Of a DNA stretch of 64,000 bases, positions 6,796 through 59,859 are shown one piece after another. The notes beneath the pieces are model-generated. The model was not told where the DNA came from. It did no database searches and was given only the letters and a program-made list of their open reading frames with translations. This stretch comes from Naegleria gruberi (taxonomy: Eukaryota): the NCBI GenBank assembly GCA_000004985.1, contig GG738884.1, one strand, 5' to 3'. Both the position numbers and the translations under genes were made by a program. Every line of letters starts with the position of its first letter. Position 1 is the stretch's first letter.

Positions 6796-7853
6796 ATGGA
6801 CGTAATTGGTCAGGACTGTATGTTGGAAATTGCTGGATTTCTATGCACTTCCGATGCTTTACACCTTTTACAAATTAATTCTGTATGGTATGTAATATTA
6901 CATATGTTTAAAATTATATTAATATTTAAAGGCATGAATTGGTAAAATCAGATTTATTTTGGAAGATTATTTATCATCAAATGATGACTAAAAGATTACA
7001 AAGTGAGACAAGAAAGAATTGTAAGATAAGACTTGAACAATTGATTCAAAAACATATCGGAAAGAGTAAGAATATGTATAAGAGACCATGTGTCAAGGAC
7101 GGAGAATTAGTATTCTTGAAAATTCTCAAAAAGGAGATTGACAGTAAAAGGTTTAGAAATCGTGCTGAAACCCTTAACAAGCTGTTAGTTACAAATGTTA
7201 ACTATTATACTGATGATAAAATAGCGATTGGTTGCCTCAAGAATATTTGGAACGGAATTCAGAATGGAATAAGACCTATGATAGCTGCTTACAATCTCTT
7301 GGGAAAAAAACACCCAATCTCTGTAAGATTATCTGAAAAAATTAGATACCGTTTCCAAAGTGATATACACTATTCACAGATACAAATTAATTACTATCAC
7401 AATCCAAAAAAACTTGTAGACGCCATTTATGAGCTACTTAATACTGTTGGAGCAGACCTGATTGAAATTGATGATATGATTGCCTTGTCAATTTTAGAGC
7501 TTGCTCACCAATTTAAACAAACAGATTTATTCAAAAAGGCATTGAGCAAAATTGTAGAATTTGGATTAAGCTCTTATGGTATTGCACATCTTGAATCAAC
7601 AGATAAGAGCAAAATCTTTTTAACTTTAGTGACAGATAAGCCATTTGAGTGTTTACATCTCGATCAGTTTTTAAAGTTGATAATCTCATGTTTTGAGAGC
7701 AAGGCTAAAGCCATTGAACATCTTTCTAGTGAATTAGGTACATGCAATTGGAGCACAATTACTGCTGAAAAGTTGCATTTTTTGTTGGAGAATGGTTTCT
7801 CAATAATACCACCTATTAACCATCAGCAACAACAACATGGTGAATCTAAATAG
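6796..7853 (+). CDS. F-box protein with two exons: 6796..6887 and 6932..7853.
   Basis: Exon 1 (MDVIGQDCMLEIAGFLCTSDALHLLQINSVW) joins through a 44-nt GTATGT...TTTAAAG intron to HELVKSDLFWKIIY. This is a canonical F-box (LxxEIxxxIFxxL...W...LW). The remaining 300 aa are helical with no further call. Confidence 0.5.
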
Positions 7854-32717: not shown

Positions 32718-34310
32718 TTAATACTTCAACTGTCTGCCAAGCTTGAAGAATTGCACATTGTTTGATGATGAGAATATTTGGTTATAGATGTGATTGAGAT
32801 CTGATTCATTGAAGAACATCATTTGTTGACTAAACTTTGGTATGATATTTCTAATAAAATCCTCATCACTGACATTTCTCAACATACTTCTCTCCTTCTT
32901 CAATTGATCAACAATATTTTGGAGTACATTGACTGGTCTAGAGCACATATAATGAGGTGTTCTTTGTTCATTCTTAACAGCAAGCAACTCTTTTGTAATT
33001 TTCAACTCTTGACGATACAAAAATCCAGCAATTTTCTTTGCATCTGGAACAGCACTCCCATTTGCCCATTCAATGAACAACTTGAAGAAATCGTACAAAG
33101 TTTGATAACCAACCACTTGCTGAGTAATATAGAATGGAATGCTAATACCTTGTGCTCCTTTATAGGCACCAACCATTGCACCCACCATTGAGGCTACTGT
33201 ATCAGTATCTCCACCTGAAAAGTTAAAGTTTGAAAAATTAAATAATTGACTCAACTTACCAATATCAATAGCCTTCTTTAGTATTGTTAAAAGTTCTTCA
33301 TCCTTGTGAATAATAGAATGGAATAGAGCAGTGGTACAACTGGCAACTGCAAATCCATCACTTGGTCCATTGAGCTTATTGTCTTTGGTTACTAATGGAG
33401 CATATTCAACAACTTTAGTCTTGACAATTTTCATGTATTCATCTGGAGAGTTGAATTTTCTCTTTTGAATTTCTTTCAAGATGCTTTCAATAATAAATGA
33501 ATATTGACCCAATTCACCATCTTTAAATCCATTTCTTGAAAGATACTTTTCGAATAAAGAAGTTTCTGATAAAACTGCACTGATAATATCCAAAGAAGAA
33601 AGCTTCAAAAGAGAACCGCTCATCCATTGGTACATTAGCCATGCAATAGAATAGGCAGGAATGATTCCCAAAACTGAACGGTGAGTCAACTTGGCATTTG
33701 CAATCACTTCTTCTCTCAATCTACCAATTCTTTCATGAGGAGGATAACGAAAAACAGAAATGACACATGGCCAAACTCTCATGGCAACACCATTACCAGC
33801 TGTATCTTTTGAAATATCGTTGGTGCAATTTTCGTTTAGTTGAGCAACGCTTCCTCTAAAGTTTCTTCCAGTTCCTCTAAAACCACCAAATTGATAATCA
33901 GCTAGAGGAAATCCAGCCCAATCAAACCACTTTTGAGAAGAAAGAAACTTCCAAAGACTTTTGATGTAAACATCATTCAAATTTCCATCACTATGATCAA
34001 AAATTGATAGTAGATGAAATTTTCAAAGAACAACTTACACCAAATATGATTCAATAATAGAAATAGCCATTTGGGTATCATCAGTATAAATTAAACCTAA
34101 ATGACACAAGTGATCATTAATAGTATTATTAGATTTAGACCAAATTCGTTGAATTTCTTCTGGTTTCTTATTTTCGAAAGGTGATCCAATGGCATCTCCG
34201 ATCGTTGCACCAACAGCACAACTAACCATCGCCTTCTGCACATTATTTCTACTGAATGAAAACAATGGTATCTCCTGTTTGGTGACTTGTTTTTGAAATG
34301 AAATTGACAT
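32718..34310 (-). CDS. ADP-ribosylglycohydrolase (ARH family, PF03747-like). Three exons: 34039..34310, 33260..33990, 32718..33214.
   Basis: The N-terminal motif is AMVSCAVGATIGDAIGSPFE (GDAxGxPxE) with TDDTQM. The C-terminal motif IDIG|GDTDTVASMVGAMVGAYKG (GGDTDT) is restored by removing an in-frame 45-nt GTAAGT...TTTTCAG intron that the long ORF reads through. The first intron is 48 nt (GTAAGT...CATAG). The real ATG is at 34310. Confidence 0.7.
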
Positions 34311-34398
34311 TTTTTTTAAACTTCTTTTCACGTTTTCCAATTCACAATTGCAAAAATAAGTTTCTTGACGAGTATTCAGCGGTCACGTTTGTGTGTTG

Positions 34399-35379
34399 AT
34401 GAGAATTAACCCATCAATTAAAAATTCTAATACTCTAATCTTCATGTCATACTTTGCAAAAACAGATTTGTCACATCTCTTATCTTCCTCTCTTCTGTCT
34501 TCTGGAGGACCAACCGAAAGGAAAAGAATTCCAGAGAAGCGTAGGCACTCCTGCGATTATGAGCATGCTGGATTTTGCAAAACTGATTGTCCTTCAAAAC
34601 ATTCTTCAAAAGGAATAATCTGCAGAAATTCATTGATTGGAGGATGTTCAGATAATAAGTGTCGTTACCAACATCCACATCCAAGGAGAGTTGAGAAAAC
34701 TCTCCAAAGCATCTATGTTAACAAGGGTCTTGATTCAGATGATGATCAGAAAAAGTTCCTCAAGAGGCACGTTGTTAAATGTCCAATTCATATGGCAAAG
34801 GATGTTTGCTCTGATCCTTTGTGCAATGATTCAAAGTGTAACAAGCAACATTTTGTTGATACAAGTGTTACTGGAATACAAGCTTTTGACTTGCAAAAAA
34901 CATTGAACGGGAATACATCAAAACTTGTGGATTGTCCTCCTTCCAGTTTCGAATATGAATTGCTCATCAGTACATGGAAGGAAAAGAGAGGTCAGAGTCA
35001 AATTGTCAAAGTTGAGAAGGTGATCAATCCTTCATTGGAAGCTGTCATTGAAAGGAGAAAGGCAGAGTTATTGCAACAATGGCAAGAAATTGATTTCCTT
35101 TTCCATGGAACCTCAGAAGCAACCATTCAATTGATCCTTGCCAATGGTTTTGATGCTACAAAGAACACAAGGGCTGCTTGGGGGCCTGGAATTTACTTTG
35201 CATTCGATCCAAACACTGCAATTGGGTATTCCAATGAGAAGGGAAGTAAAAAGCTGATTGTGTGCAAGGCCTTCCTTGCAAAAGATGCTTCAGATCACAA
35301 ATTTGTTGCTCAAAATACTTGGTTTGTTGTTCAGAATACCAGTGGTCTGCAACCAATGTATGTTCTCACTTTGGCCTAA
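34399..35379 (+). CDS. CCCH zinc-finger PARP-like mono-ADP-ribosyltransferase (H-Y-T; catalytic Glu replaced). Transcribed divergently from the ARH gene.
   Basis: Two to three CCCH fingers (CDYEHAGFCKTDCPSKH; CRNSLIGGCSDNKCRYQH; CPIHMAKDVCSDPLCNDSKCNKQH). Then FLFHGTSEATIQLILANGF (His), GPGIYFAFDPNTAIGYS (Tyr) and QNTWFVVQN (Glu replaced by Thr). Confidence 0.65.
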   Translation: MRINPSIKNSNTLIFMSYFAKTDLSHLLSSSLLSSGGPTERKRIPEKRRHSCDYEHAGFCKTDCPSKHSSKGIICRNSLIGGCSDNKCRYQHPHPRRVEKTLQSIYVNKGLDSDDDQKKFLKRHVVKCPIHMAKDVCSDPLCNDSKCNKQHFVDTSVTGIQAFDLQKTLNGNTSKLVDCPPSSFEYELLISTWKEKRGQSQIVKVEKVINPSLEAVIERRKAELLQQWQEIDFLFHGTSEATIQLILANGFDATKNTRAAWGPGIYFAFDPNTAIGYSNEKGSKKLIVCKAFLAKDASDHKFVAQNTWFVVQNTSGLQPMYVLTLA

Positions 35380-35449: not shown

Positions 35450-36361
35450 ATGGAACAAGAAATTCTTGGTGCTCTTGCTCAATTTCGTAACAAGAATCAC
35501 ACGTTTGATGAAGGTTATGTGGCAGCAATACAGTTGTTGACTCATTCCTACACTTTCACCCAATTGAATACCATTAAAAAAGATATTCAACAACGCGAGT
35601 TGAGAAACACAAAAGATTTCTTTAAAGAGTTGGCTGGATCTTACTCCAAAAATTCTGAAGGAATGACCAAGGAAGAATATTTGCAAGAATCTATTAGAAA
35701 TCTTTCTGGATTTTCTTTTGCTGATATGATCAACCTGAGCAAGGAGGAATTCTATAAAGCACTAGAAAGTAGAAAAGGCCCAAAACGTGTGGTAAGCGCT
35801 TCTACCACTCCATTGGATTCTGATAGTAGTGACGATGAAAGTCCAAAACCATCTTCCTCATCAGGCAAGAGATCATATTCATATGATCATCTATTCTCTA
35901 GACACGATTTGAGCTCCAAGTTAGATATCAGACCCAAATGCAAATATGGAAATACTTGTAATCAGTTATATGATGAAAAGCATATGAAGGAATTCTCACA
36001 TCCATTCCTACCTCCATGTTGTTTCAAAAACTCTTGCTCTGAATATGGTGATGAAGCTCACAAGTTTTCACATCCCTGTAGATATGGCTCTCAATGTAGA
36101 GAATTGAAAGATCCACATCACACCCAATACTATTCTCATGCAGAGAGAAAGGTTTGTGAACATGACAAGGAATGTCTTTGTATTCATGATAGAGATCACA
36201 TGCTTAGAGTTAAGCACACTGGTGCATTGGATTTCAGGCATGAGTGTAAGTATGGGTTATTATGCAAAGATGACTCAAGAGAACACCATTTGAAATATGC
36301 CCATCCCTCAACTTTAGGTATTCCAACAAACTTTTACGGTACGTTGAGAAATCTTATTTGA
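35450..36361 (+). CDS. PBZ (PAR-binding C2H2-type zinc finger) protein with 3 canonical and 2 degenerate PBZ motifs.
   Basis: CKYGNTCNQLYDEKHMKEFSHP, CRYGSQCRELKDPHHTQYYSHA and CKYGLLCKDDSREHHLKYAHP fit C-x5-C-x6/7-H-x5-H with the conserved Y/F-G, as in APLF and CHFR PBZ. The N-terminal half is helical and acidic with an SDSSDDESP stretch. Confidence 0.65.
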   Translation: MEQEILGALAQFRNKNHTFDEGYVAAIQLLTHSYTFTQLNTIKKDIQQRELRNTKDFFKELAGSYSKNSEGMTKEEYLQESIRNLSGFSFADMINLSKEEFYKALESRKGPKRVVSASTTPLDSDSSDDESPKPSSSSGKRSYSYDHLFSRHDLSSKLDIRPKCKYGNTCNQLYDEKHMKEFSHPFLPPCCFKNSCSEYGDEAHKFSHPCRYGSQCRELKDPHHTQYYSHAERKVCEHDKECLCIHDRDHMLRVKHTGALDFRHECKYGLLCKDDSREHHLKYAHPSTLGIPTNFYGTLRNLI

Positions 36362-36480
36362 AATTAATCCTTTGTTAATTAGATATCAATCAAGATATAG
36401 ACTTTGATGCCAATGTTGTAGCTCTTTCCAGTTCTATTAGCAATTATTCAATCAATACTGGAGACCTAGCATTGATAAAC

Positions 36481-37989
36481 ATGTTATCAAAAATTGACTC
36501 TGGAGATCGTAGTGTAGATTTCATATATGAGTATGTTAATAGAATTAGCCCACAACACAGATGTAAAGAACCAATATTAAAACTCATTCTATCGCATGGC
36601 ACTTTACTATCAAGAGTTTTCCAAAAGAAAATGACAAGCTCACCAAAGGAAGCATGCATGGAGCTTGTTTTTACAAGTCCTTTAATTACACAATCCATCA
36701 TGCATGAAAGACTCACATTATCCAATGATGTTAAAAAGTGGATTGTGGAATTGTTGAACTTTCAGATAGACCAACGTGACAATAAGAATCCTAAATCTGT
36801 GACTTGCAAATTAAAATTAAGCAAAAAATGCCAGCAGGAGGTAGAAGGTGTGATTAAGGACATTGTTCGTGCCGTCTTTTCACACACAGTTACTGGTATT
36901 GGTTGCCCATTGGATTTAGCTGTGAAAACAGACCAACAGGTTTTTTCAATTGTTGGTATTAATAAGGCAGATTATTATGGTGATATTCTTTTCATACTTA
37001 ATAGGAAAATCATGTTCCATCCAGATTTTAACATGAGTTTGGAAGCTGCCACTCATTATGTGGATCGCCCTGGAGAAGCTTCAAAGACAAACAAGTGGAG
37101 AATCCCTCCTGGAAATAATTCAAACAGTAATTATGAGAATGCCAAATTGCACCCAGCTGCCAAAAACTTTCACAAATTATTAGCTAAGGATATGGCAGTA
37201 TATCATTTCAAATTATTTGGTTCTTTGCCTAAATCTGTTGATGATTTGGTAAATACCTCACTCCATGAAGATCCACACAATGTATACGAAGGTCATTTAC
37301 CTCCAATAGTCCCAGTATCTTATATTTCCCACGTTATTATGCCAAAAAAGGTATTTGATAACCTGTCTGATGCAGAAAAAAAAGTACTCAAAGTTGTCAT
37401 TTTGAAAAACAAAGCAGATAGATTAATATTCAAGGACTCTGGGCATCATCACCTTATCAAATCCCAACAATTATGGGATTGCAAGAAGCACAAATTGACT
37501 GAAATGTATTTAGGAAGATTATTGTCCTTCTCTATCATGTATCAATATGGAAAGTTCAGTATGTTGCCTCAATTAGCTCTTCATTCATCAACAAAAACAG
37601 TTATTGAACTGTGCATCAGAGGAAAGGATATTGGTATATGTCTTTCACCAACCAAGAAGGCAGATAGATCCAATTCCCTATTCATCATCATCAACAAGGT
37701 TTTCTTTTGGAAATCCAACAAGACTCCATCAACAATAATTACTGACGGCAAGAAGGAGTTGAAAAAGGTCAAGGAATTCATCCTGGGTGATATCTTTATG
37801 GAAAGATATATTTACTATACCATCACCTATAAACCTGGTAAAAAGTTGAGAGTGGAGGTGAGTGAGAAGAATAGTAATGATATTGAGAGGAAATCGTGCG
37901 AGGTTAACATCTCCCATAGTAATTTAAAGAACATACTATTCTCTAATTGGAGTTCTCTAGTAGAAGTTAAATATATTTCAATTAAATAA
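36481..37989 (+). CDS. Hypothetical protein of 502 aa, adjacent to the PBZ gene.
   Basis: Long clean ORF, real ATG at 36481. No recognisable motifs. Mixed alpha/beta composition with an HHH tract. Confidence 0.4.
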   Translation: MLSKIDSGDRSVDFIYEYVNRISPQHRCKEPILKLILSHGTLLSRVFQKKMTSSPKEACMELVFTSPLITQSIMHERLTLSNDVKKWIVELLNFQIDQRDNKNPKSVTCKLKLSKKCQQEVEGVIKDIVRAVFSHTVTGIGCPLDLAVKTDQQVFSIVGINKADYYGDILFILNRKIMFHPDFNMSLEAATHYVDRPGEASKTNKWRIPPGNNSNSNYENAKLHPAAKNFHKLLAKDMAVYHFKLFGSLPKSVDDLVNTSLHEDPHNVYEGHLPPIVPVSYISHVIMPKKVFDNLSDAEKKVLKVVILKNKADRLIFKDSGHHHLIKSQQLWDCKKHKLTEMYLGRLLSFSIMYQYGKFSMLPQLALHSSTKTVIELCIRGKDIGICLSPTKKADRSNSLFIIINKVFFWKSNKTPSTIITDGKKELKKVKEFILGDIFMERYIYYTITYKPGKKLRVEVSEKNSNDIERKSCEVNISHSNLKNILFSNWSSLVEVKYISIK

Positions 37990-38308
37990 TATTAGTCTCT
38001 ACCATTTGATACATGTATTTTCTTCGAGATGTGATTTTAATATTTTTATTTAAATTTAACGTTAAAATTAGCGGGTAAAAATTCTTTTGCTGTGTTGGCA
38101 AGTAATTCCCTTCAATTATTTGTTCTTCAATAATCATGACAATTAAGTTTGAGAGTGTATTCCGCTCTAAAAAACAATCAAGAAGACATTATTCCTCTCC
38201 ATCACACATTACCTCCAAAACTTTAAATAACTCACCGTTACAATTTCAATTAAAATTATTAAAAAAAATTTTAAAAGTTTTGTGTGTTTTGTGGTAAAGA
38301 GAAAGAAC

Positions 38309-40405
38309 ATGAATATTATTTCCTCTAAAAAGGCATCACAAAGTAAAACAACCAACTCCACTCCCAATAAGAATGCTCAAAATTCCTCTCTACAATCAAC
38401 TCCTAACAAATCTTCATCATTAATTAAATCTAATTCTAACCAACAATGTTCATTTCAAACACCAACTAAAAGTAGTACTACTCTCCGAACACCATCATCA
38501 ATAGCATCATCATCCTCTCTAAAATCGTCCATTGTTTCCTCCTCGTCATCATCAACTGATGTTTATCAGGTAGCAAAGAATGCAGCCCTCTCATCCAATG
38601 AGAGAAATACAGAGCAATGTCTACGAGCCATCAAGTATTTTGCAGAGGGAAAGTTTGAATTGGCTCTGGGTCAGATTAGTTTGCAAACAACCAAGTCATT
38701 TCTCTCCAAATTGGTTTCGTATAAATGTTTCTATCACATGAGTGAAATTGAGAAGGCACTGCTTGTTTTGAAAAATCTGTACAATGATACAACCACTCTG
38801 ACTGAGAGAGGTGAGGAGGATGTGATTGGTAGTGTTCAGATCAGTATCATGTTTGCCCAAATTGTTCTCTTCAAACTCATTCCAAAACGATTGACATTCA
38901 AGTGTTTATTGGCTGAGGAGAGTGAAATTCTTGAGAGTGGGGAATCTATTAGTTCTGATTTGGATATAATTAAGGAATATTTGAGAAAAATTGTAAATAT
39001 GTTGGATAAAGCAAGGGAAGATTTGAAGAAATTAGAGAATGAATGGATTAATTTTGATAGAGAGGAGGCACCTTTCGATTTGACATCAATTATCAATCAA
39101 TTGAAGTGGTTTATTATGTTTTACAAGGGTGTGGCCCATTTTAGAACCTACGAGTATGTATACACTAAGAATGATTATGAGGAGTGGAAGAAAATTTTGG
39201 AAACGCTTTCGAAAAAGGGCCAATTTCTGCATGTAGACTTTTTTTACATGCGCTCACACTTATCATTCATGGAGGGTGAATTAGAGAAGGCACTATTTTA
39301 TTTAAATAAGGCAGAAAGATCAGAGGAGCATTGTAAAAAAACAATTAAGGAACATGTGGGTGGTGTCAATGCAACAGATGCCATGTGGATACTTGATGAC
39401 AGTGCTCTTTCTTTTGACGTATTTGACATGATTCAGGATTTAAAATCCAAAATTACATTTTCACAATATCTGGAAAAGAGAATGGTCTTAAGAGAGGTGT
39501 CAGAAAAGAAGGAATTGGAACGTCTCATTAGAGAAATCAGATCAGTTAGTATTAAGAGAAGACAACACAATGCTTCACTCGCTGAGAGAACTAAACAATT
39601 TGATGGATTCTTGGGTACATTAGCCCAGACCATGTTTAAGAACTTTGATTGTTCTATCATTGAGAAATTCAGAATTTATGGTCAGTATAGATATGTGGTT
39701 CATTTAGCCAAGAGTTTACTCAATTCTGACAAGCCATTATCACATTCTATGAAGATCGCCTGCGTACATTATCTAGTTGAAGCTCTGTACTATCTGAAGA
39801 GGTTTAGTGAGTGCGTTTCAACCTATTCTATACATTCGGATTTATTCAAAAATATTGATTCGAGTCAGGAACATAGATTACTCAAAGTCAATTACTTTGT
39901 TGTAGATAGTACCATTACAATTAACTTGGAGGGTGGCTCTCTAACCTGGACCATTCAGGAATCAGAAGCACTCATCAAGCAAAATTTGAAAATTACCAAA
40001 GAAGTTCGACAATTATATCTAGCTCTCAGATTTTACAAATTTCTTGGACGTGAATCAGCAGCCACATTATTGAAACATCTATTCACCTCCATTCAGAAGG
40101 ATTCTTCGATTACTTATTCAGAATTTTTCACTGTAGTCGAACAGTATAGTTCCAGAAATTTCACCATCAAGATTGGCACGAGCAAATCCCTAATAGCTAC
40201 ACCAAACAAGACCAACGAAGCTACTCCTCAGAAGAGTGCAACTCCATCAGCTGTTGATGACTTGGTTACCTATTCAAATTTTGAAGACTTTTCCCCACTT
40301 CGTTTACAAAGCAAAATGAAGAAACAGAATCAAGCACTTGAGGAATTGAAGAGAAAACGAGAAGCTCAACAATCATCTTCAACAAAAAAGACAAAAACAG
40401 AATAA
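38309..40405 (+). CDS. Hypothetical helical-repeat protein of about 700 aa with an N-terminal Ser/Thr-rich tract.
   Basis: Real ATG at 38309. A 54-codon upstream ORF (38136..38297) precedes it. No confident domain call was made. Confidence 0.4.
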   Translation: MNIISSKKASQSKTTNSTPNKNAQNSSLQSTPNKSSSLIKSNSNQQCSFQTPTKSSTTLRTPSSIASSSSLKSSIVSSSSSSTDVYQVAKNAALSSNERNTEQCLRAIKYFAEGKFELALGQISLQTTKSFLSKLVSYKCFYHMSEIEKALLVLKNLYNDTTTLTERGEEDVIGSVQISIMFAQIVLFKLIPKRLTFKCLLAEESEILESGESISSDLDIIKEYLRKIVNMLDKAREDLKKLENEWINFDREEAPFDLTSIINQLKWFIMFYKGVAHFRTYEYVYTKNDYEEWKKILETLSKKGQFLHVDFFYMRSHLSFMEGELEKALFYLNKAERSEEHCKKTIKEHVGGVNATDAMWILDDSALSFDVFDMIQDLKSKITFSQYLEKRMVLREVSEKKELERLIREIRSVSIKRRQHNASLAERTKQFDGFLGTLAQTMFKNFDCSIIEKFRIYGQYRYVVHLAKSLLNSDKPLSHSMKIACVHYLVEALYYLKRFSECVSTYSIHSDLFKNIDSSQEHRLLKVNYFVVDSTITINLEGGSLTWTIQESEALIKQNLKITKEVRQLYLALRFYKFLGRESAATLLKHLFTSIQKDSSITYSEFFTVVEQYSSRNFTIKIGTSKSLIATPNKTNEATPQKSATPSAVDDLVTYSNFEDFSPLRLQSKMKKQNQALEELKRKREAQQSSSTKKTKTE

Positions 40406-40571: not shown

Positions 40572-42560
40572 ATGGAACCATTCGATGATATTGTAACACC
40601 AACTAAAATGGAGGCACCGATCGACGATTTTACATCTGATCAAACACCACAAACACCGGGAAGTGCTATTGATTTTGGAGCCTTGAGTGGATTGGAAGTT
40701 GATGTGGCTGAGATTGAAAATCCAGATGCTGTTCAAGAAAAATTAGCCTCTCTCTACAATGTAGAGGAGTGCTCTGATATTGTATTTATAGTTAGGAATA
40801 GAAGATTTTTTGCTATCAAGGCTCTTGTGTGTGGTTGGAGTCCAGTTTTCAAGTCAATGCTATGTGGAGAGTTCATTGAATCAAGTTTAAGAGAAGTTCC
40901 TTTGGATGATGTTGAAGAAACTAGTATGGAAATGTTTTTGAAGGTTATTTATTCTGGAAAGACTGGTCCATATCCAATTCATAATTTTGTTGATCTATAT
41001 GCATTTGCTAATAGATTTGAAGTTCCAGAAATTGAAAAACTCTGTCTCACTGCATTACAAGAACAAAATTTGGCCAAACACTTATTCCCATTGATTGATG
41101 CTTGTGAAAAGTATATTGATCTCGAAGAAATTGAAAAGATTAGAACCGAAGTTGTAGCCAAAATTTGTTGTGAATTTGATGAAGTTTGTTCTAGACCTGA
41201 CTTTGTGAATATGCGTATTGATTACTTGTTGAGATTCTTAAAATCTGGAATTATTGTCATTCCAGAAGATGTTTTATTCAATTCTTTAATGCGTTGGATT
41301 GTACACGATAAGGAGCAAAGAATTCAATACTTGGATGAATTATTGTCCTTTATTAGATTCCCAATGATGGAATCTGTTGCATTGACAGAAATAGAAAACC
41401 ATCCTCTTCTCCAAGATAAGATGGATGAAATGAAATCCATTATTTACGAAGCAATGAAATTCCAATTGAACAAGGATGCCATTCCAGAAGAAAGAAGAGT
41501 TCATGAAAACTTTAAAGAAAGAGAAGGCCCACCAGAGGAAGATGGACATTCCTACAAGTACAAGAAGGTCTTTACTTTGACATCTCTTGGTTGTACAGGA
41601 AGCGTCAAACCAACAAGTATTGGAACTCATTATGACAAGCATCTTTCCAAAGTAATTACTCTCAAGAATGGTATTCAAGAATGGAAAGTTCATGCTAGTG
41701 GAAAATATAGAATAACTGCAGTTGGTGCATCTGGAGGAATCAACCCACATACCACCAATACTAAGGGTGGTAAGGGAGCCAAAGTGAGTGGAATTTTCAA
41801 ACTCAAGAGAGGTCAACTTATCCAAGTATTAGTTGGTCAAAAAGGAGGTAAGTTGAACTATTTAATAATAATCGGTCTAAACAATTGTTAAGAGGATGCC
41901 ACAGGTAGTACTGGCGGTGGAGCTGCAGGAGGTAAGTTGTTCATTATTTGAATGAGGATGTTAATTAACAATTTTCAGGTGGTGGAGGTACATTTGTAGT
42001 GGATGGAGAATTGCAACAACCATTGATAATTGGAGCTGGAGGTAGCGGGGCAAATTGGTATTCATTTACCATCGATGGACCTGGTGGTCAATTATACGAT
42101 CCTTCAATTGAATCAACCAAGTCGGTTGAAGCTTATGCAGAAAGAGGAGGTGGCGGCGGTGGATTTTATATTAAGGGTGCTAATGGTTCATCTTGCACTG
42201 GTGGTGCCAGCTTTTTAGAAGGTGGGTCTGGAGGTACTAACTCAACTAGTACTTATGGAGCTAAAGGTAAGTAACACAAGAAATTTGATTGAATTGATTT
42301 ATTCTCTTAAAGGTGGATTTGGTGGAGGTGGTGGTTCTGAGCACGAAGGTGGTGGTAAGTAATTTTTTTATTATCCTATTGAATTATTAACTTTTCAAGG
42401 TGGTGGAGGTTATGTTGGAGGCAAGTCACTCAAATCTAATGAATATAACACTTCTCGTCCTGATTATGGTGCCTATTCTTTCAATTCTGGTTTAAAGCCA
42501 GAAGGTGAACCAGCTTGTCACGTTGGTGATGGTTATGTTGAATTTGCCAGAGTTTTCTAA
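40572..42560 (+). CDS. BTB/POZ-BACK protein with a C-terminal ALK/LTK-type glycine-rich domain; paralogue 2. Five exons: 40572..41847, 41893..41931, 41979..42266, 42313..42354, 42400..42560.
   Basis: BTB: DIVFIVRNRRFFAIKALVCGWSPVFKSMLCGEF. GRD: ITAVGASGGINPHTTNTKGGKGAKVSGIFKLKRGQLIQVLVGQKG | EDATGSTGGGAAG | GGGTFVVDGELQQPLIIGAGGSGANWY...GGGGGGFYIKGANGSSCTGGASFLEGGSGG | GGFGGGGGSEHEGG | GGGGYVGG...GDGYVEFARVF. All four introns are 45-47 nt, GTAAGT donors, phase 1 within GG(T/A) Gly codons. Confidence 0.7.
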
Positions 42561-47090: not shown

Positions 47091-50000
47091 TTACTCTACA
47101 ACATCTTGCCACATTTCCTCAATTTCATAAATGGCTTCAAGAATTTCTGAAAAGTCAGGTCTGATATTTTCATCAGTTGCCCAACATGTCTTCATCAATT
47201 CTGTGTACTTATCAACAAGTGGGATCAATAGATTGGAACTGGTCAATTCTACTCTATTCTTTTGCTTATTACAGAATAAATACCATTCACATTTTAGGGT
47301 ATCTTCGTCTTGCTCGAATTCGGACGAGTCGTTTTGAATTTGGAGTGCATTGTTTCTTACTGAGCTTATTTCCCATGGAATGACTGGTCTTCTGCCCTGA
47401 ATAACTTCACTACCAATAGAGAAGATACTCATCATATCAGAGCCTATAAATGTAGTATGACCTGATGTGTCAGAGCTTGTCAAATCAGAAATTTGTGAAC
47501 CACTATTAGATTCAGTACTAATTCCAATACTAGACCTTTCCTTCTTGGTGAGGGGAGATTTTGGAAGTTCTGTATATGGTTGTACCATGAAGAATAATTC
47601 ATACATGAGGATGGCAAAACTGAAAACATCACATTTGACTGTATATCTTCTAGATTGCTTGAGGATTTCTGGACTTGTGTATTGGATAGTACCATAACAA
47701 ACACCAGTCATTGTGAGTGAAGACAATGGCTTTGACACACCAAAGTCACAAACCTTACAATTGCCAGCTTCATCTATGAGAACATTTTGAGGTTTCTATT
47801 ACAAAAAATTAATTAAGAGTATTCAATTTGAATACTTACCAAATCTCTGTGAATGATAGGTGGTTTAGTGTTATGTAAATAAATCAAAGCTCTACAAATA
47901 TCCTTCAATATTTCAAGTTTTCTTCCAAATGTAATAATTTCATTTCTAGCCTTCCTCTTCTTAGGATAGATGATCTTGTCCAAACTTCCACCTTTTACAA
48001 ACTCAGTTACGATATACTTGTTATCCTCGTCCACACTGACACCAATAAGTAAGACAACATTAGGGTGTCTCAATCCTGTTAAAATATTAGCTTCATGTTC
48101 AAAGTTTTCATCATCATCACAACCAAATTGGTTAGATTTGATTCTCTTGACAGCAACTTCAGTACCTTTCCAAGAAGCTCTGAAAATAACACCTCCAGCA
48201 CCTTCTGAAACTCTCTCCTTGAATTCCAAATCTTCAATTGGAATCAAATGGGCAGATGTATTTGTAGAGTCCATTGAAGAATAGAAACTTGATTTAGTGT
48301 TGTGCTCGAGAAGTTTAGATAACATTTCATCTTCTGCCTTCTTCTTTCTCTTGAGAGTTTGTGATTGTCTTCTAAACATGAAAGCAAATATACCCAATGG
48401 TATAGCAACCACAAGAATTATCAAAATACCAGCTACAATTAGAATTGGAACAATAACACAAGCAGCATATGAAGTGTTTCCATTCGTGAATGTTGGTAAA
48501 CCCAGTGGACAAGAAGTACATTTGACAGCACCTTTCAAATCAGAGTAAGTAGAAAATGGACAAATTTCACATTGTAAATCTCCATTAAGGAAGAAACCCT
48601 CCTTACAGTATACGCAAATAGATAAATTCTTAGAACCAGCACTTTCTGTAGTCATACCTGTTGGACAAGAATAACAAACAGGAGAACCAGTAGAGTTTGA
48701 ATAAGTTCCAATTGGGCACAATTTACAATCTCCTTCTGATTCGGATCCACTATTTGGTTGGAATGTTCCAGCAACACAAGCTGTACATTCCTTTTGACCC
48801 ATAGTATTAGCATAAGTACCAGGAAGGCAAGGAACACAACTGGTAGAGTTGGATGAACCCTCATTTGGATTAAAGGTTCCAAGTGTGCATTTTGAGCAAA
48901 TAGAGGCACCCTCCTTTTCAGAGTATGATCCAGCTGAGCAAGGTTTACAATCTGATGCTTGATAACTGTTCATATTAGAGTTTGCTGTACCTGCTGCACA
49001 CTTGGTACAATGAGGAGCTCCAGGATTTGCGCTAAAAGTACCAGTCGAGCATGGCAAACATGACATTGAACTATTTTGACCAAATAGTGGTTGATAGGTA
49101 CCTTTTTCACAGAGTGTACATTGATATTGTTGCATTAGATCTGCGTATTGACCTGTAGGGCAAGGAAGACATTTCTTTAAACCAGTCACAGGTGCAAATG
49201 TACCAATTGGACAAGCTGTACAATTTAAAACTTGTCCAGTAGTATTTGAAAAAGATCCTTTTGGACATGAGTCGCACAATCTCTGTCCAATTGTTTTTCC
49301 AAAAGTACCAGGTTCACATGGAATACATGAAGAAGGATAAATAGAACCCATTACAGGATTGTGGGTTGAAATAGGACATGGAATACATGAAGAAGCTCCT
49401 ACATAAGGATTGTATTGTCCATAAGGACAAGGTGTACAGGTTTCATTTGAGAAGGCAGAAAGCTCATCACTTGCTGTACCTGCAGGACAATGATAACATT
49501 GTTCATCCTTAAACATAATTGTATAAATTGTTGGTAAACTTGGAAGGGTTCTATTGTAGAATGAAACAACATAGGCCTTATTTGATTCGCTGTATGCCGA
49601 ATAAATAGCTCCATAAACTGTATCTTTGGATTTTTCAATAATAGTTTCCTTATACCATCTTTCTCTATTTCTAACACAATACTTGGAAGCGAAAAATCTA
49701 GATCTGACTTCATTGGGATTACCAACATTACTACCACCTGGTCGAATAACTCCAGATACGTAGGTGAAACCACTTGAATCTACATCAAATGTTGTATTGT
49801 AAACGTTTTGGAAAGTAAGCATTGATTGCAAGAAACCATTTGAATCAGTTTTAGCAAGGAAAAAATTTCTATCAAAAGAGCTGGTTACATTTTGCCCTTG
49901 GAATGATACATAACTACCAAACTCGCCAGAAAAGAGAATATTTCTATTTGGATCAAACTTGAGAAGACTGCTGAACTCTGAAGTGAAGAATTGGTCAGAA

Positions 50001-53000
50001 GTGATCATATTGTCATCCTTACTACTGTTAGTAGTAATTGTTTGCATCCATAATATCTTTCTGTTACCGGTTGTTTGGTCTAGTGGACCAAACTTGAGTA
50101 AATAGTAAGAGAGTACTTCTGAATTGTGATTGATTATTTGCAAATCCTCAAACCTGACTGCACTCTTGAAAACACCAGAAATTACAACATTTCCTACAGA
50201 ATCTGGTAATACAGAGAACCCTTTAGACATACCCTCACTAGTGGCTATCCACAAACAAACCATATTAAAAGGCTCAATTTCAAATACTATAGTGTTAACA
50301 AGAGAAGAAGAAGTTGTAGTACAGCTAGGATCAATTTCAACGCTTCCTCTATATCCTCCAGTGATTAAAATTGATAAATCTTCAGTTATTCTAATAGATT
50401 CAGGGATTACGTTGATAAACTCCTTTCTTACTTGAATTCTTCCTTCATTGATTTTTAACATTACACCTGTGAATTGTGTAGCTCCATAATTTTGTTTGGC
50501 TTTCCATCCAACAACCCAAGTGTTATCAAACCTGTCAGTAGCAACACTGGTTACAGTAATTCCATCTGTAGAATTGGTTTGATCTGAGAGAGTAGCAAAG
50601 TAGTTGAAGCTTTCAGCATCCAAAACCGATGAAAACCTGACAGAAATTCCATTCAAAGGACCTCTTGGACTTGTAGAAATACCAAAGCCTGTATATGAAA
50701 TACTACCATGTCTACCAAAAGAAATGTAGAGTGAAGGAACTGTTCCATATAAAAAGATTGGACTCACAATTTTGTCTGCATCTGTTTGATTTACCAAATA
50801 CGAGCCGACTCCACAACTAGTAAATCCTTGCACAATTTCAGAGCCACAATTTTCACCAGTATAGTTAGTATAACACTTGCAAACATCTTTAGCAACACAA
50901 GCTCCGTGAGAAGCACATACAGACATATTGGTTGCGTCAACCCCAAAGCAATTAGCAATTTCGCAATTCTTTCCTGTGTAATTCTCATTACAAATACAAT
51001 AGTCAGGAAAAGCACATCGTCCATTGCCTGAACAGGTCTGCACATCATTTTGTGGAATGTCAAAGCATACAGGATACTGACATGACTCACCAGCAAATGT
51101 TCCCAAGCTACAAGAACAAGAATTTGGTCTAACACATTTTCCTCTTCCTGTACATGCTCTTGTATCATCTTGAGAGTAAAATCCACATAAAGGAATAGTA
51201 CAAAGTATATCACTACACTTATTACAACCCTCTGTAACAGTTGAAACTAGTGTATTAATGAAGCCTACAGGGCTAACAACAGTACTTGGATCTCCAATTA
51301 CTTGCACATTACCACTGAAAGAAGCAGACACATAGAACTGTCTTGGAGTCCTTGCATCGGTCGATAACATTAATGGTTGAGTGGCTATCAAGGATCCCTT
51401 AATGAAAGAGTGAATGTAGGTTTGTTTGAGTTGTACATTTGTACTATCGCCAGTGTTAACAAATTTTTGGGCAAAGAGAGTGATTGAGCTTTGAACACCA
51501 AAGGTTATAAAACTATCCCAATCAATATTAGAGTAGACATTACCATTCTTTCCGATAACTACAAGCTCATTGTAATTGTTTGCTCGAATTTTAACACCAA
51601 AATATGGATTATCATATTGAACTAGATGAGCTATAAGACTTCCATCGTCTATTGATACTTGGGAAATGATACTACTAAAATTCGAAAGTTGAACATTAAT
51701 TAGCATAACATCACCCAAAAATGTTATATCTTCCACAGATTTTGCTCCATCAATTTCAATAATTTGTGACCAAATTTCTTGATCGGTAGTCTTGAAAGCA
51801 TCGTAGCAAACAATATAAACTTGGTGAACTGTTCCAACATCTGTCAACATGGTTTCCATGGTACCTGCAATGAAAACTCTGTCCTTCTTAGGAGATAAGG
51901 TAATCAAATGAGCTGAAGAAGAACCATAAAGATAGGATGGTAAAGGATCTACTTTAGTGGCATAAATTACCTTTCCAGTTGTGTTGGAGAGGGCACCATA
52001 GAATACAGAGCTTTGTTTTCTAGATTCTAAAACAACTCCAACATCCACAAAAGTTAATTTGGCATTAAATACTCCTGTAAAATATAGTGTTCCATCTTGG
52101 CCGTAAGTAACATCCTTAACTATGTTCATAGCCACACTACCCATAATTGTATTTGGCATAATAATGGCAGGTGGAGGGAAAATGGGTTGAGGGAGCTCAG
52201 CTTCCTTATTAATTGCTGGTTGATCCAAAATATTATCCAGATCAAATTGGAATAACATTAGTGTTGATTTAGATTCGTATTGGGTTTTTGCAATTTCCAA
52301 ATATTGAGGCAATTCACCTCCCAATGCTACTCTCCTTTTCCCATTATGATCAAGCTTAGCCATCGTGTATAAATAGTATTTGGTGTTTCTTGTAACTATT
52401 CCAACTTTGAAAAGTCTAAACATGTTACTATTTTCATAAATTACCCAATACCCTTGAGTAACACCAGCTGAAATCTCTGCTACGACCTCATCAGCCACTG
52501 CCACATCAGACCCTGAAAAGTGCCCGATTGTATAAATTCGATTCTCATCACTCACCAATTTTCTTTGATCTACCTGCAAAGTAGACAGGAAATCAAATCT
52601 GGCTCCTTTCTCTTCAGGCGATGCACCTCGAATAAAACTCATTCTAGTTGATGTAATAGTTCTGTTTCTAATAATCATTGGATGAAGAAAATCTTTACTG
52701 CAGTCAACCACATGGTTTGGATTTTCGCTATCTGGATCCAGAGATACATACGAATTATAGAATAATCTCTTGTCAATGATACCATTCTCGGTTGATGCAC
52801 AACTCGCAAGACTAAATAAATAATTATGTAATATAAGTATTATACATAGAACAATAATGATTTTTCCAATTCCTCGATTATTATTATTATTATGATTTAC
52901 AACATTTAACCCTTCCAATTTTGATAATCCAATAATATTTGTTGTTCTTTCTCGATTATGATAATGATTGAACCAGGTTGATGAAAATTTATTTTTCTTC

Positions 53001-53134
53001 TTATCCTGTTGTTCTTGTTCTTGTTGTATCTGATGATGGTGCGATATTGATGATGAACAAGGAGTTTCATCATCAGAAGAGAAAAGTAACAGCGGTGATA
53101 GTAGTGTTTCGCCTCCAAGTAGAAGCAGAGACAT
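47091..53134 (-). CDS. Giant TKL-family receptor Ser/Thr kinase of about 2000 aa. It contains an N-terminal globular region, 4 EGF/tenascin-type repeats, a second beta-rich region, at least 12 GCC2/GCC3-type Cys repeats, a TM helix, and a kinase split by one 44-nt intron. Exons: 47840..53134 and 47091..47795.
   Basis: EGF-like: CTGRGKCVRPNSCSCSLGTFAGESC... Repeats of CxPCPxGxYxxxxGxxxC (for example CTPCPYGQYNPYVGASSCIPCP). TM: VIVPILIVAGILIILVVAIPLGIFAFMF. Kinase: GAGGVIFRASWKGTEVAVKRI, HRDL|KPQNVLI (intron GTAAGT...GTAATAG), CDFGVSK, GTIQYTSPE. Confidence 0.7.
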
Positions 53135-56957: not shown

Positions 56958-59859
56958 TTAATTCAATATTAGAATAATATTAGAATGAAAATATCGAATC
57001 GAAAACTTACAGTGATCGTGAATTCCTCTTGTGGCTAAAATACTATTAATGATTGTTAGGAGCATCTTGAAACTCTTTCTAAATTCAGTTTCCATCTCTT
57101 CAAGCTCTGGGATAAAAATATCTTCTCTTTGAGTTTCTTTAAAATTGGCCAATTTGGTTCTCAAAGTTATACACATTTGCACAACTTTGAAAATGTGATT
57201 CTTTACGAATAGAGCTTTCTTTAACAGGAATCTGTCCTTAATCTTATTGAGATAGTCCAAGTGGAAGCTGCGAAGATCATCCATATTTTTTGCTGATAAA
57301 ATATTTTCACACAATTCATTCCACAGAGTATGTAATATTCTATTCATCATGTAGTACTGTACAGTTCCAATAAAATGTTTCAATTGGTTAAGGAGAGAAT
57401 AAAACTTGAGATAGGCATTACTTTTGTGTGTAAATGCATCAGTCTTGAGACTCATCTTGTCCAATACTAGTGTTTAAAGTTGTATTGTCAATTTAAAATA
57501 TTAAAAACGAACCTTGTTTAGCTTGTTTTAGTTTGAGATTGAAAACTAAAACCTCATTATAGCTCTGTATGTGTTGAGCTGAAATAATCAGATTTAAAGG
57601 CCACTCTAATTCATAATTAAAAGTGACTGCATCAAAAAAGTTATTTTCCTCATGCTTGATACTTCCATCATCAAAGTGAACCGAAATTATTTCATCCAAT
57701 TTCAGAGAAGTGAAAATATCAGTAGTGTAGACAGAGGTTGAGTTTTCGGTAGCAAAAGAATACCTCCTTGGAAATTCCATTCCTAAACGAAGTGCATCTT
57801 TGAGAATAACCTGAAGATCAAATGTTGTAATTCCTCTAAAATCAAATTGGAAAAATCTATCAGATAAATTAAATAATTTGGTGGCAAAATAGTCCATAAT
57901 GTCACCAGCCTCCATCAAGTAGAATGCTCTTATTGCTGTCAGATGGTCCAGTAACTTGCATCTATTGACCAATAAATCACAAAGATAGGGAGATACTCTA
58001 TGATATTGCTCCTCTATGTGGCTTGATAGTCCAACGTTAAATATTATTTCCAATGGTAGAGTTTGTAATTTTTGACTATTCTCTGATGAAAATTCAAGTA
58101 CATCCATGAGACTCTTCTTCTTGAAAATTGAGGTTAGCTTGTCTTGATTTGTTATTTTGTGCTCCTTAGAAAAGTCAAAGAACAAGAGTTCTTGTTGATT
58201 GGTGCTATTGTCAGCTGGAAGTGCATTACTGTACAAGTCTTCCTTTTCTAAAAGTGATATCATTCGTTTTTTCTTTGGTGGTGATCTCAGAGAGTGTAAA
58301 GATCCAATGGGAGCAAGTGTGGTTTGTCTGATGTTGTTTGAAGAAGAGCCTGCAGATTGATTTTCTCTCTTCTTTGAGGATGATGGCGAGGACCTAAAGG
58401 AATTGAGAGGTTTCAGTGGAGAAATGATTATTGACTCGTCATCATCAAAGGGTGAGTGATGTTCATCATTCTCTAAACCCATCGAAGAAGAAAGTAGATT
58501 AAAGAGTGAGGGTTTCTCCTTTTCTAGTAGATAATCACCAATAGAACTGTTATTGGCAGCAATTTCATACTTTTGCTCAATATCCCGCACAATAATGATG
58601 GATTTACCTGTTGCACTAATCTTGTCCTTAATTTTTGAGAGCAGGGAACAGACCTTAGATTCAGTAAATCCCTCACTCCAGAAGAGAGGTGTTCCAATAT
58701 CCACCAACTCATTCCTCTTGAGAAGAAATTCATTGTGTTGGTCCTGCAAGGTCCCTTCGAATATCCAGCTGTCTGTAATGGAAAGGTATGGCTTTAGAAT
58801 AGCCATCAATATTTGCAATGAATAATCATACTCATCATTGTTGCTCTCCATGGAAATATATTGTCTCGTGAGAACTTTTTCATAAAAGTGAGAAATTAAA
58901 TCTGACATTAAATTACTCTGTGAATCCTCTCTATCTAAGATTTCCTCAATTTCTTCATCCAGTTTTCTGAGTGTATGAATTTTTTGTTCAAAAACAAAAA
59001 GATTTGTCCTAAGGGAGAGGAGAGAAAGATTGTGTGTATCTCCAAATCTCTTTCCCATTTGATTACTCTTCTCCATTTCCGATAAATCGTCTCTGATTTT
59101 CTCTATTATTTGTAATATTGATGAGTAGCAAGATTGAATAATTGTGCTTTTTACAAGGCGTATCGATCTTGTTGCAGTCGAATGCATTTTCCTCAGCTTG
59201 TTACCTATCTTAATAAAATAATTTAAGGAATTATGTAGAGCTGTCCTAGAGAGGAAAGAAACAGAAAGCTCCCTATCAGAAAGCTCAAAATTATCATTCA
59301 CAATTTTAAATATAGTTCCCTGAAATCCTCTCAACATGTTGAATATTTCGCGTATCAGATCATTTTGTCTAATAACTTTTGTACAAGGTGTAATTACCCT
59401 AATATTTCCAATAGGAGGAGTTTGTGTAATTTTAAAGAGAGTATAATGCTCAAATAAATGTCCATGAGGAAAGTGAGTAAATGGTAAATGGCAAGTGATG
59501 AGTTTGTTTGGATCAAAATTGATAGTATAGAATAAATCTTCCGATTTTTCATTGGTTGTATTGAAATCATCATTCATAAAATCATCGTCGTCATCAAACA
59601 TTCCATGATCATCATTGTGTAATATTTGATGACGATCTTCCATTCTATTATTACTACTAAAGATATCTGTAATATTACACATCGTATCCATATGAAACAC
59701 TACATTATCATCAAGAATATCATTATTATTGGTGGTTTTGGTTTTTCTTGCTTGTTTCGAATCCAATTCCTCATCATCGGACCAATCACTTAAATCATCA
59801 TCATCCGAGCCATACTCTGCAAAATTTCGTTTATATTCCTCCAAATCTAATAAATTCAT
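56958..59859 (-). CDS. Gamma-tubulin complex component (GCP/Spc97-Spc98 family). Two exons: 57513..59859 and 56958..57466.
   Basis: LLDHLTAIRAFYLMEAGDIMDYFATKLFN and the C-terminal FHLDYLNKIKDRFLLKKALFVKNHIFKVVQMCITLRTKL fit GCP grip motifs. ORFs 57493..59916 and 56958..57464 are joined by a 46-nt GTTCGT...CACTAG intron. The real ATG is at 59859. Confidence 0.5.

What the first reader, a model, noticed from the sequence alone, without database searches (positions are those of the whole stretch)
33215..33259. In-frame 45-nt intron hidden inside a long ORF; micro-introns of 34-73 nt throughout the window
The ARH ORF reads straight through a GTAAGT...TTTTCAG segment that is exactly 45 nt with no stop. 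Removing it fuses IDIG to GDTDTVAS and recreates the family-defining GGDTDT motif. Other introns here are 34 nt (2356..2389), 41, 44-52, 61 and 71-73 nt. Introns this short that are multiples of three will be invisible to ORF-based annotation elsewhere in this genome. Several long ORFs in this window (for example 47840..53134 and 38309..40405) may contain more.
Basis: seen in the sequence. Interest (0 to 1): 0.5.

Follow-up and report, generated by a model that had tools for sequence, protein, structure and literature searches.

The report
Short in-frame intron, already annotated
The 45-base segment is almost certainly an ordinary tiny spliceosomal intron in a Naegleria gruberi ADP-ribosylhydrolase gene that happens to be in frame and stop-free, and the public gene model already removes it, so it is correct but not new.

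Summary
On the minus strand, 33259..33215 is a 45-nt GTAAGT...TTTTCAG segment with no stop in the reading frame. Removing it joins IDIG to GDTDT.

The window is Naegleria gruberi nuclear DNA. Four lines of evidence say the segment is a phase-1 spliceosomal intron:
- The 15-residue insert is absent from all 13 aligned homologues, including bacterial and archaeal ones, and it splits the invariant metal-binding GGDTD motif.
- Naegleria fowleri genomic DNA encodes ...VIDVGGDTDTVAS... without interruption.
- Pfam PF03747 rises from 106.9 to 123.4 bits after removal.
- The segment ranks first among 2,992 in-frame, stop-free GT..AG segments in the window's long open frames. It is 78% A+T, against 65% for the gene's exons.

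The public model XP_002674466.1 already splices it out. A hidden intron of this kind is about what chance predicts: roughly 6% expected, 1 of 14 seen.

About 14 short introns (34-52 nt) are present in the window, two of them checked against orthologues. No transcript data could be examined.

By-products:
- The public model probably uses a wrong acceptor for intron 1.
- The 45-nt intron is absent from N. fowleri.

The parts
33215..33259 (-). Intron 2 of the ARH3-like gene. It is 45 nt, phase 1 and GT-AG, stop-free in the reading frame. This is the finding itself.
   Evidence: Sequence read. The insert is absent from all homologues and from N. fowleri genomic DNA. Pfam gains 16.5 bits on removal. 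It is the top-ranked candidate of 2,992. The public model P0001 removes it.
33254..33259 (-). 5' splice site GTAAGT, extended to GTAAGTTG, preceded by exon base G.
   Evidence: It matches the window's donor consensus: G1 T2 A3 A4 G5 T6 in 11-15 of 15 introns, with T7 in 10 of 15. Donor score is 13.2 against 8.4-16.7 for the training introns.
33222..33226 (-). TTAAC, a yUnAy-type branch-point candidate with its A 9 nt upstream of the 3' splice site. A second candidate, TTAAT, lies at 33237..33241.
   Evidence: Motif scan. TTAAY occurs within 30 nt of the 3' end in 7 of the 15 introns listed there. Which A is actually used is inferred, not shown.
33215..33221 (-). 3' splice site TTTTCAG: a short pyrimidine run followed by CAG.
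   Evidence: Only this acceptor restores GGDTDT. The next in-frame AG (51 nt) would delete the GG (one search lists the alternatives).
34039..34310 (-). Exon 1 (CDS). The likely start is the ATG at 34310 (MSISFQKQ...). The public model starts at the ATG at 34229 (MVSCAVG...).
   Evidence: The N-terminal extension aligns with the N. fowleri N-terminus; this is suggestive only.
33991..34038 (-). Intron 1, 48 nt, phase 2, GTAAGT..CATAG, with an in-frame TAA.
   Evidence: N. fowleri has an intron of about 215 nt at the same codon and phase, and its exon 2 begins NQRLDPIYIKT, matching DGNLNDVYIKS here.
33260..33990 (-). Exon 2. It encodes most of the ADP-ribosylglycohydrolase domain, including the YTDDTQ metal-binding motif.
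   Evidence: Pfam PF03747 and alignment A1.
32718..33214 (-). Exon 3, including the stop codon. It begins with GT GGA GAT ACT GAT ACA, which supplies the rest of GGDTDT.
   Evidence: The nucleotide-level match to N. fowleri across the junction is.
47796..47839 (-). A 44-nt intron in the neighbouring receptor-kinase gene that splits HRDL|KPxN. It is an independent validated example of the window's short-intron class.
   Evidence: The N. lovaniensis orthologue has a 59-nt intron at the same position.

Best explanation
The segment is a canonical U2-type GT-AG spliceosomal intron (45 nt, phase 1). It sits in the first glycine codon of the GGDTDT metal-binding motif of a Naegleria gruberi ADP-ribosylglycohydrolase (ARH3-like) gene.

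It belongs to the genome's ordinary class of very short introns, 44-52 nt in this window. Such introns are presumably recognised by intron definition: a GTAAGT(TG) donor pairing with U1, a TTAAY branch site and a short T-run plus CAG acceptor. Splicing produces the mRNA that encodes the contiguous motif needed to bind the second Mg2+ of the binuclear centre.

Its length being a multiple of three, and its lack of an in-frame stop, are coincidences of the frequency expected by chance. It is present in N. gruberi and absent from the N. fowleri orthologue, so it is a lineage-variable intron; whether it was gained or lost is undetermined.

Shown: the sequence signals, the alignment evidence, the uninterrupted N. 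fowleri genomic sequence and the public annotation. Inferred: actual excision in vivo, the choice of branch point and intron-definition recognition.
For: - Identity of the window: it is N. gruberi, and P0001 (XP_002674466.1) is identical to the window-encoded protein apart from the choice of intron-1 acceptor and start codon.
- Public model: P0001 reads ...KKAIDIGGDTDTVAS..., so the 45 nt is already annotated as an intron.
- Alignment: in A1 the 15 residues KLSQLFNFSNFNFSG are an insert seen only in the unspliced reading. G350 G351 D352 T353 D354 are invariant in all 14 rows, which include bacterial and archaeal proteins that cannot have spliceosomal introns.
- N. fowleri genomic locus L002: exon 3 encodes residues 239-540 without interruption, including VIDVGGDTDTVAS. 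At nucleotide level the spliced N. gruberi junction ATTGATATTG|GTGGAGATACTGATACAGT matches N. fowleri ATTGATGTCGGTGGAGATACAGATACAGT.
- Pfam PF03747: 106.9 bits unspliced, 123.4 bits spliced. As a negative control, removing a false candidate (63543..63593) lowers Penicil_amidase from 413 to 383.7 bits.
- Splice signals: the donor GTAAGTTG equals the window consensus. The length of 45 nt falls within the 44-52 nt class. A+T is 0.78 against 0.647 +/- 0.067 for the exons. It ranks first of 2,992 in-frame candidates.
- Solved ARH-family structures have the motif uninterrupted. In human ARH3, Asp314, Asp316 and Thr317 (D-x-D-T) coordinate Mg2+, and mutating them abolishes activity (PMC8141533).
Against: No transcript evidence could be examined with these tools, so excision is inferred.

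The branch-point candidate closest to the acceptor has its A only 9 nt from the 3' splice site. That is shorter than the TTAAY candidates most comparable in position in the other introns (-11 to -20).

The acceptor-region score from my small 13-intron matrix was low (2.1, against 5.5-12.1 for the training introns). I regard that matrix as too noisy to weigh.

Because the intron is 3n and stop-free, a retained form would be translatable, so some retention cannot be excluded.
Confidence: 0.93

Rival explanations
1. The 45 nt is genuine coding sequence: a lineage-specific 15-residue loop insertion (KLSQLFNFSNFNFSG) retained in the mature mRNA and the protein. On this reading the resemblance to splice signals is fortuitous.
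For: The frame is open through the segment. The unspliced protein still scores well above the Pfam threshold, at 106.9 bits against a cutoff of 26.2.
Against: - The insert boundaries coincide exactly with GTAAGT and CAG.
- The insert sits immediately before invariant metal ligands and is absent from every homologue, including the 44-48% identical N. fowleri orthologue and its genomic DNA.
- Its composition is intron-like: 78% A+T, in the top 2.5% of exon windows.
- Removal raises the family score by 16.5 bits.
- The public model, made with a eukaryotic gene-prediction pipeline, splices it.
Confidence: 0.03
2. It is an intron, but one that is facultatively retained (exitron-like). Because it is 3n and stop-free, the retained transcript escapes nonsense-mediated decay. 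It is translated into an ARH variant with a disrupted Mg2+ site, which would give a regulated inactive or substrate-trapping isoform.
For: The segment is 3n and stop-free in frame. Intron retention has been reported in N. gruberi transcriptomes in general (PMC6142364). Exitrons are a described class (PMC4484396).
Against: - Nothing here indicates retention.
- The segment has intron-like rather than coding-like composition and strong consensus signals, unlike the weak sites typical of exitrons (my knowledge).
- The frequency of 3n stop-free introns in the window is what chance predicts: 5 of 14 are 3n and 19% of intron-frame combinations are stop-free, so about 6% are expected and 1 of 14 is seen. 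No selection needs to be invoked.
Confidence: 0.04

Closest known systems
Annotated intron of N. gruberi gene model XP_002674466.1 / EFC41722.1 (UniProt D2VNE3, 'ADP-ribosylhydrolase ARH3')
   Same: It is the same locus and the same 45-nt segment is removed; the model reads ...AIDIGGDTDTVAS....
   Different: The public model uses an 81-nt intron 1 (33958..34038) and starts at the ATG at 34229. Orthologues support a 48-nt intron 1 (33991..34038), and possibly the upstream ATG at 34310.
3n stop-free introns as a gene-prediction blind spot (Roy & Penny 2007, PMC1950532). Their depletion under NMD surveillance in short-intron genomes (Jaillon et al. 2008, cited from my own knowledge).
   Same: It is a short intron whose length is a multiple of three and which lacks an in-frame stop, so ORF scanning reads straight through it.
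   Different: This one was not missed by the real annotation. In this window the class is neither enriched nor visibly depleted (1 of 14).
Exitrons (Marquez et al. 2015, PMC4484396)
   Same: It lies inside an open reading frame, is 3n and has no stop, so both spliced and unspliced forms would be translatable.
   Different: Exitrons are coding sequence that is alternatively spliced. This segment is AT-rich and non-conserved, has no counterpart in any homologue, and carries full-consensus splice sites. Alternative use was not tested.
Human ARH3 / ADPRHL2 and archaeal MJ1187 (PDB 2foz, 6d36, 1t5j): the protein encoded by the host gene
   Same: PF03747 domain. The TDD and GGDTDT metal-binding motifs are conserved after splicing.
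   Different: Identity is only about 25-30%. The Naegleria protein carries a C-terminal extension of about 140 residues shared with N. fowleri. Enzymatic specificity is untested.

Membership tests
U2-type GT-AG spliceosomal intron | GT at the 5' end and AG at the 3' end | tested here: met
   GTAAGT...TTTTCAG.
U2-type GT-AG spliceosomal intron | Extended 5' splice site matching the organism's consensus (U1-complementary GTAAGT) | tested here: met
   GTAAGTTG. The consensus from 15 window introns is G T A A G T T G/T. Donor score is 13.2, within the range of the training introns.
U2-type GT-AG spliceosomal intron | Branch-point motif (yUnAy) upstream of the 3' splice site | tested here: inconclusive
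   Two candidates exist, TTAAC (A at -9) and TTAAT (A at -24). Which one is used, and whether -9 is permissible, cannot be decided from sequence.
U2-type GT-AG spliceosomal intron | Removal restores a conserved, uninterrupted protein sequence | tested here: met
   Alignment A1; Pfam gains 16.5 bits; N. fowleri genomic DNA is contiguous at this site.
U2-type GT-AG spliceosomal intron | Absent from mature mRNA | not testable with these tools
   No transcript data are reachable. RNA-seq exists as PRJEB23822.
ADP-ribosylglycohydrolase family (Pfam PF03747; ARH3-like): the host gene | Profile match above the curated threshold over the whole domain | tested here: met
   123.4-123.6 bits against a cutoff of 26.2, covering profile positions 2-284 of 287.
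ADP-ribosylglycohydrolase family (Pfam PF03747; ARH3-like): the host gene | Binuclear-metal ligand motifs T-D-D and D-x-D-T (human ARH3 Thr76/Asp77/Asp78 and Asp314/Asp316/Thr317) | tested here: met
   YTDDTQ and, after splicing, GGDTDT are invariant in A1. Ligand roles are taken from PMC8141533.
Exitron (alternatively spliced coding segment) | 3n length and no in-frame stop, inside an open frame | tested here: met
Exitron (alternatively spliced coding segment) | The segment has coding character, meaning conserved protein sequence or exon-like composition | tested here: not met
   Absent from all homologues. A+T is 0.78 against an exon mean of 0.647.
Exitron (alternatively spliced coding segment) | Both spliced and retained isoforms present in mRNA | not testable with these tools
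   No transcript data.
Introner-like (repeated, mobile) intron | Multiple near-identical copies of the intron sequence in the genome | tested here: inconclusive
   No second copy was found in the 64-kb window or in L002/L003; the only matches were AT-rich fragments of 14 nt or less. The rest of the genome could not be searched.

The most novel reading that the evidence does not exclude
The 45-nt intron is a recent, N. gruberi-lineage gain inserted directly into the catalytic GGDTDT motif. Because it is 3n and stop-free, retained transcripts evade NMD and are translated into a metal-site-disrupted ARH. That product would act as a regulated inactive or substrate-trapping isoform opposite the neighbouring PARP-domain gene.
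Probability: 0.04. Interest if true: 0.35.

Novelty: already known. Interest (0 to 1): 0.1.

Why it matters
It matters little beyond annotation hygiene. It is a clear example of why ORF scanning is unsafe in short-intron eukaryotes: the unspliced frame stays open and still passes the Pfam threshold while carrying a 15-residue insert in the metal-binding motif. That hazard is well known, and this particular intron is already in the public model.

The by-products are small:
- An orthologue-supported correction of intron 1, and perhaps the start codon, of XP_002674466.1.
- A probable chimeric model (P0128).
- Evidence that intron positions differ considerably among N. gruberi, N. fowleri and N. 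lovaniensis.

Tried and rejected
- **Acceptor matrix.** A position matrix for the acceptor region built from 13 unvalidated introns gave the candidate a low score (2.1). I do not rely on it, because the training set is too small and mixes AAG, TAG and CAG acceptors.
- **Pattern enrichment.** The composite pattern GTAAGT..TTWAY..YAG (34-75 nt) is only weakly enriched in the window: 5 observed against 2.5 +/- 1.6 in Markov-1 simulations. It has no value as a stand-alone detector.
- **Exact-product look-ups.** That left no route to transcript or Logan evidence.
- **First search for 38309..40402.** The word-index homology search returned nothing, presumably swamped by Ser-rich low complexity. The full HMMER search then found the orthologues.
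- **Other in-frame, stop-free candidates, rejected:**
  - 32801..32887 (GTATGTTGAG, 87 nt) lies in sequence conserved with N. fowleri.
  - 63543..63593 contains the GSNNW nucleophile site of a penicillin-amidase homologue, and removing it costs 29 bits.
  - 58769..58831 reads as ordinary protein sequence with a weak donor; it was not tested further.
  - 39356..39436 covers residues conserved in orthologues.
- **7323..7379.** This one remains unresolved. The PDB sequence search gave nothing useful for it.
- **Introner-like repeat.** No second copy of the intron was found in the DNA available.
- **Structure prediction.** I judged it non-discriminating between 'intron' and 'real loop insertion' and did not run it.

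Full report
**What is at the coordinates.** Read on the minus strand, window 33259..33215 is GTAAGTTGAGTCAATTATTTAATTTTTCAAACTTTAACTTTTCAG, 45 nt long. It lies inside the 420-codon open frame 32718..33980(-). In that frame it reads KLSQLFNFSNFNFS without a stop; the other two frames have stops.

**What the gene is and where the window comes from.** The open frame is the second part of a three-exon gene. Exon 1 (34310..34039) is joined to it through a 48-nt GTAAGT...CATAG intron (34038..33991) that contains an in-frame TAA. The spliced product (499 aa from the ATG at 34310) matches Pfam PF03747 (ADP-ribosylglycohydrolase) at 123.4 bits, against 106.9 bits when the 45 nt is left in. The best database hit is 'ADP-ribosyl-GH domain-containing protein [Naegleria gruberi]' (XP_002674466.1, UniProt D2VNE3). 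It is identical to the window-encoded protein apart from the choice of intron-1 acceptor and start codon, so the window is N. gruberi nuclear DNA.

That public model reads ...LKKAIDIGGDTDTVASMVGAMVGAYKG.... The 45-nt segment is therefore already annotated as an intron.

**Comparative evidence that it is an intron.**
- In a 14-sequence alignment, the 15 residues are an insertion found only in the unspliced reading. It falls immediately before the invariant G-G-D-T-D columns. The other rows include N. fowleri, two other eukaryotic sequences (one from a Trinity transcript assembly) and bacterial and archaeal proteins that cannot contain spliceosomal introns.
- Solved structures of the family (MJ1187 1t5j; human ARH3 2foz, 6d36 and others) carry the motif uninterrupted.
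- In human ARH3 the D-x-D-T residues Asp314, Asp316 and Thr317 coordinate the two Mg2+ ions, and the aspartates are required for activity (PMC8141533).
- I recovered the N. fowleri genomic locus (L002, VFQX01000028.1) and mapped the protein onto it. Its third exon encodes residues 239-540 without interruption, including VIDVGGDTDTVAS.
- At nucleotide level the spliced N. gruberi junction (ATTGATATTG|GTGGAGATACTGATACAGT) lines up base for base with the contiguous N. fowleri sequence (ATTGATGTCGGTGGAGATACAGATACAGT).

**Signal and composition evidence.** I collected ORF-bridging GT..AG segments across the window. About 14 are short introns of 34-52 nt, most of them 44-52 nt, with a donor consensus G-T-A-A-G-T-T-(G/T). 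The candidate's GTAAGTTG matches this fully, and its 45 nt sits in the modal length class.

Among all 2,992 in-frame, stop-free, 3n GT..AG segments of 30-90 nt in the 47 open frames of at least 150 codons, it ranks first on donor score and is the most AT-rich of the high scorers. Its A+T is 0.78, against 0.647 +/- 0.067 for 45-nt windows of the gene's exons; only 2.5% of exon windows reach it. Two yUnAy-type branch candidates are present, TTAAC with its A at -9 and TTAAT with its A at -24. Which one is used cannot be told from sequence.

As a control for the 'removal improves the family score' test, I deleted a false candidate in a penicillin-amidase homologue (63543..63593). That lowered its Pfam score from 413 to 383.7 bits.

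**Is an in-frame, stop-free intron surprising here?** No. Of the 14 short introns, 5 have lengths divisible by three, and 19% of intron-frame combinations are stop-free. About 6% of such introns should therefore be 'hidden' by chance, and 1 of 14 is. The gene-prediction hazard of 3n stop-free introns is a described issue (Roy & Penny 2007, PMC1950532). In this case the real annotation was not fooled.

- The 1,765-codon frame 47840..53134(-) aligns to its N. lovaniensis orthologue (P0121, 61% identity over 1,638 aligned residues). Beyond residue 135 there is no insertion of 4 or more residues on the N. gruberi side. The poorly comparable N-terminus is the only untested part.
- The frame 38309..40405(+) is kept whole in the public N. 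gruberi model (P0128, 100% identity over residues 1-698). It has no insert of 5 or more residues unique to N. gruberi against three orthologue representatives.
- The best splice-like candidates inside both ORFs have weak donors and exon-like composition.

One other candidate, 7323..7379(+), is 57 nt (GTAAGA...CACAG). Removing it makes a sub-threshold CDC24-CH Pfam match appear (19.9 bits against a cutoff of 21.3). Its donor has A at position +6, where all 15 reference introns have T. I could not obtain orthologues for it, so it stays unresolved and I consider it unlikely.

**How it most likely works.** This is an ordinary U2-type intron of the very short class, presumably recognised across the intron. 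It is excised to yield the mRNA for an active ARH-family hydrolase. Excision itself is inferred, not shown, because no transcript data were reachable. N. gruberi RNA-seq exists (PRJEB23822; PMC6142364) and would settle the question in minutes.

Because the intron is 3n and stop-free, a retained transcript would be translatable into a protein with 15 residues wedged in front of the Mg2+ ligands. I give a functional role for such an isoform about 4%, and a purely coding reading about 3%.

**Evolutionary note.** Intron 1 is shared with N. fowleri at the same codon and phase (48 nt against about 215 nt). The 45-nt intron is absent from N. fowleri, and N. fowleri has a different second intron (at QWIQ|GNL) that N. 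gruberi lacks. Likewise the N. lovaniensis kinase orthologue has four introns (65, 114, 76 and 59 nt), of which only the last (HRDL|KPQN) is shared with N. gruberi (44 nt, 47796..47839). Intron positions thus turn over noticeably within the genus. Whether the 45-nt intron was gained or lost cannot be polarised with the data at hand. No second copy of its sequence exists in the DNA available.

**Annotation by-products.**
- The public ARH model uses an 81-nt intron 1 (acceptor at 33958) and so drops DGNLNDVYIKS. N. fowleri (NQRLDPIYIKT), two other eukaryotic homologues and the position of the N. fowleri acceptor support the 48-nt version. The Pfam score rises from 118.2 to 123.6 bits.
- The N. 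gruberi model P0128 (1,387 aa) joins ORF 35663..37857 to ORF 38300..40405 through an 'intron' of about 440 nt. The orthologue representatives begin at the second ORF, so the model is probably a fusion of two genes. The reported mean annotated intron length is 203 bp (PMC8296547). If such mis-fusions are common in the annotation, they would inflate that mean relative to the roughly 47-nt class seen here. This is my inference.

**Verdict.** The feature is ordinary for this genome, occurs at the frequency chance predicts, and is already in the public annotation. Interest is low and novelty is 'already known'.

Noticed in passing
window 33958..34038 (-), compared with 33991..34038 (-): The public model XP_002674466.1 uses an 81-nt intron 1 and omits DGNLNDVYIKS. 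N. fowleri (NQRLDPIYIKT, with its intron at the same codon and phase) and other homologues support a 48-nt intron. Pfam rises from 118.2 to 123.6 bits. Both versions are 3n, so alternative 3' splice-site use is also conceivable.
   Followed up: yes
window 34229..34310 (-): An in-frame upstream ATG at 34310 (MSISFQKQVTKQEIPLFS...) adds 27 residues that align loosely with the N. fowleri N-terminus (..FENQIDHRQDIPLLE..). The public model may therefore start too late.
   Followed up: partly
window 35663..40405 (+); junction about 37857 to 38300: The public N. gruberi protein P0128 (1,387 aa) fuses two long ORFs through an 'intron' of about 440 nt. Three orthologue representatives (P0129-P0131) begin at the second ORF. 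It is probably a chimeric gene model.
   Followed up: partly
window 7323..7379 (+): A 57-nt in-frame, stop-free GTAAGA...CACAG segment. Removing it makes a sub-threshold Pfam CDC24-CH match appear (19.9 bits, cutoff 21.3). The donor has A at +6, unlike all 15 reference introns. It is a possible second hidden intron, but doubtful.
   Followed up: partly
window 34393..35379 (+), next to the ARH gene; N. fowleri L002 4052..5949: The ARH (eraser) gene sits head-to-head with an ORF carrying CCCH zinc-finger-like motifs and a PARP catalytic domain (PF00644, 41.6 bits). In N. fowleri the ARH orthologue is also adjacent to a gene with PARP and kinase hits. This may be a conserved writer/eraser gene neighbourhood.
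   Followed up: partly
window 41848..41978 (+): Two short introns (45 and 47 nt, both with GTAAGTTG donors) appear to flank a 39-nt micro-exon (AGGATGCC...GCAGGAG) in a Gly-rich gene. This was not validated against homologues.
   Followed up: no
L003 (N. lovaniensis PYSW02000001.1) compared with window 47796..53134; L002 compared with window 32718..34310: Intron positions differ markedly between Naegleria species. Three of four N. lovaniensis kinase introns are absent in N. gruberi. One N. fowleri ARH intron is absent in N. gruberi, and one N. gruberi ARH intron is absent in N. fowleri.
   Followed up: partly
window 63543..63593 (-): The penicillin-amidase (PF01804, 413 bits) homologue contains the GSNNW autoprocessing and nucleophile site inside a segment that superficially looks like an in-frame intron (GTAAGA..AAG). 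This is a useful false-positive control.
   Followed up: yes
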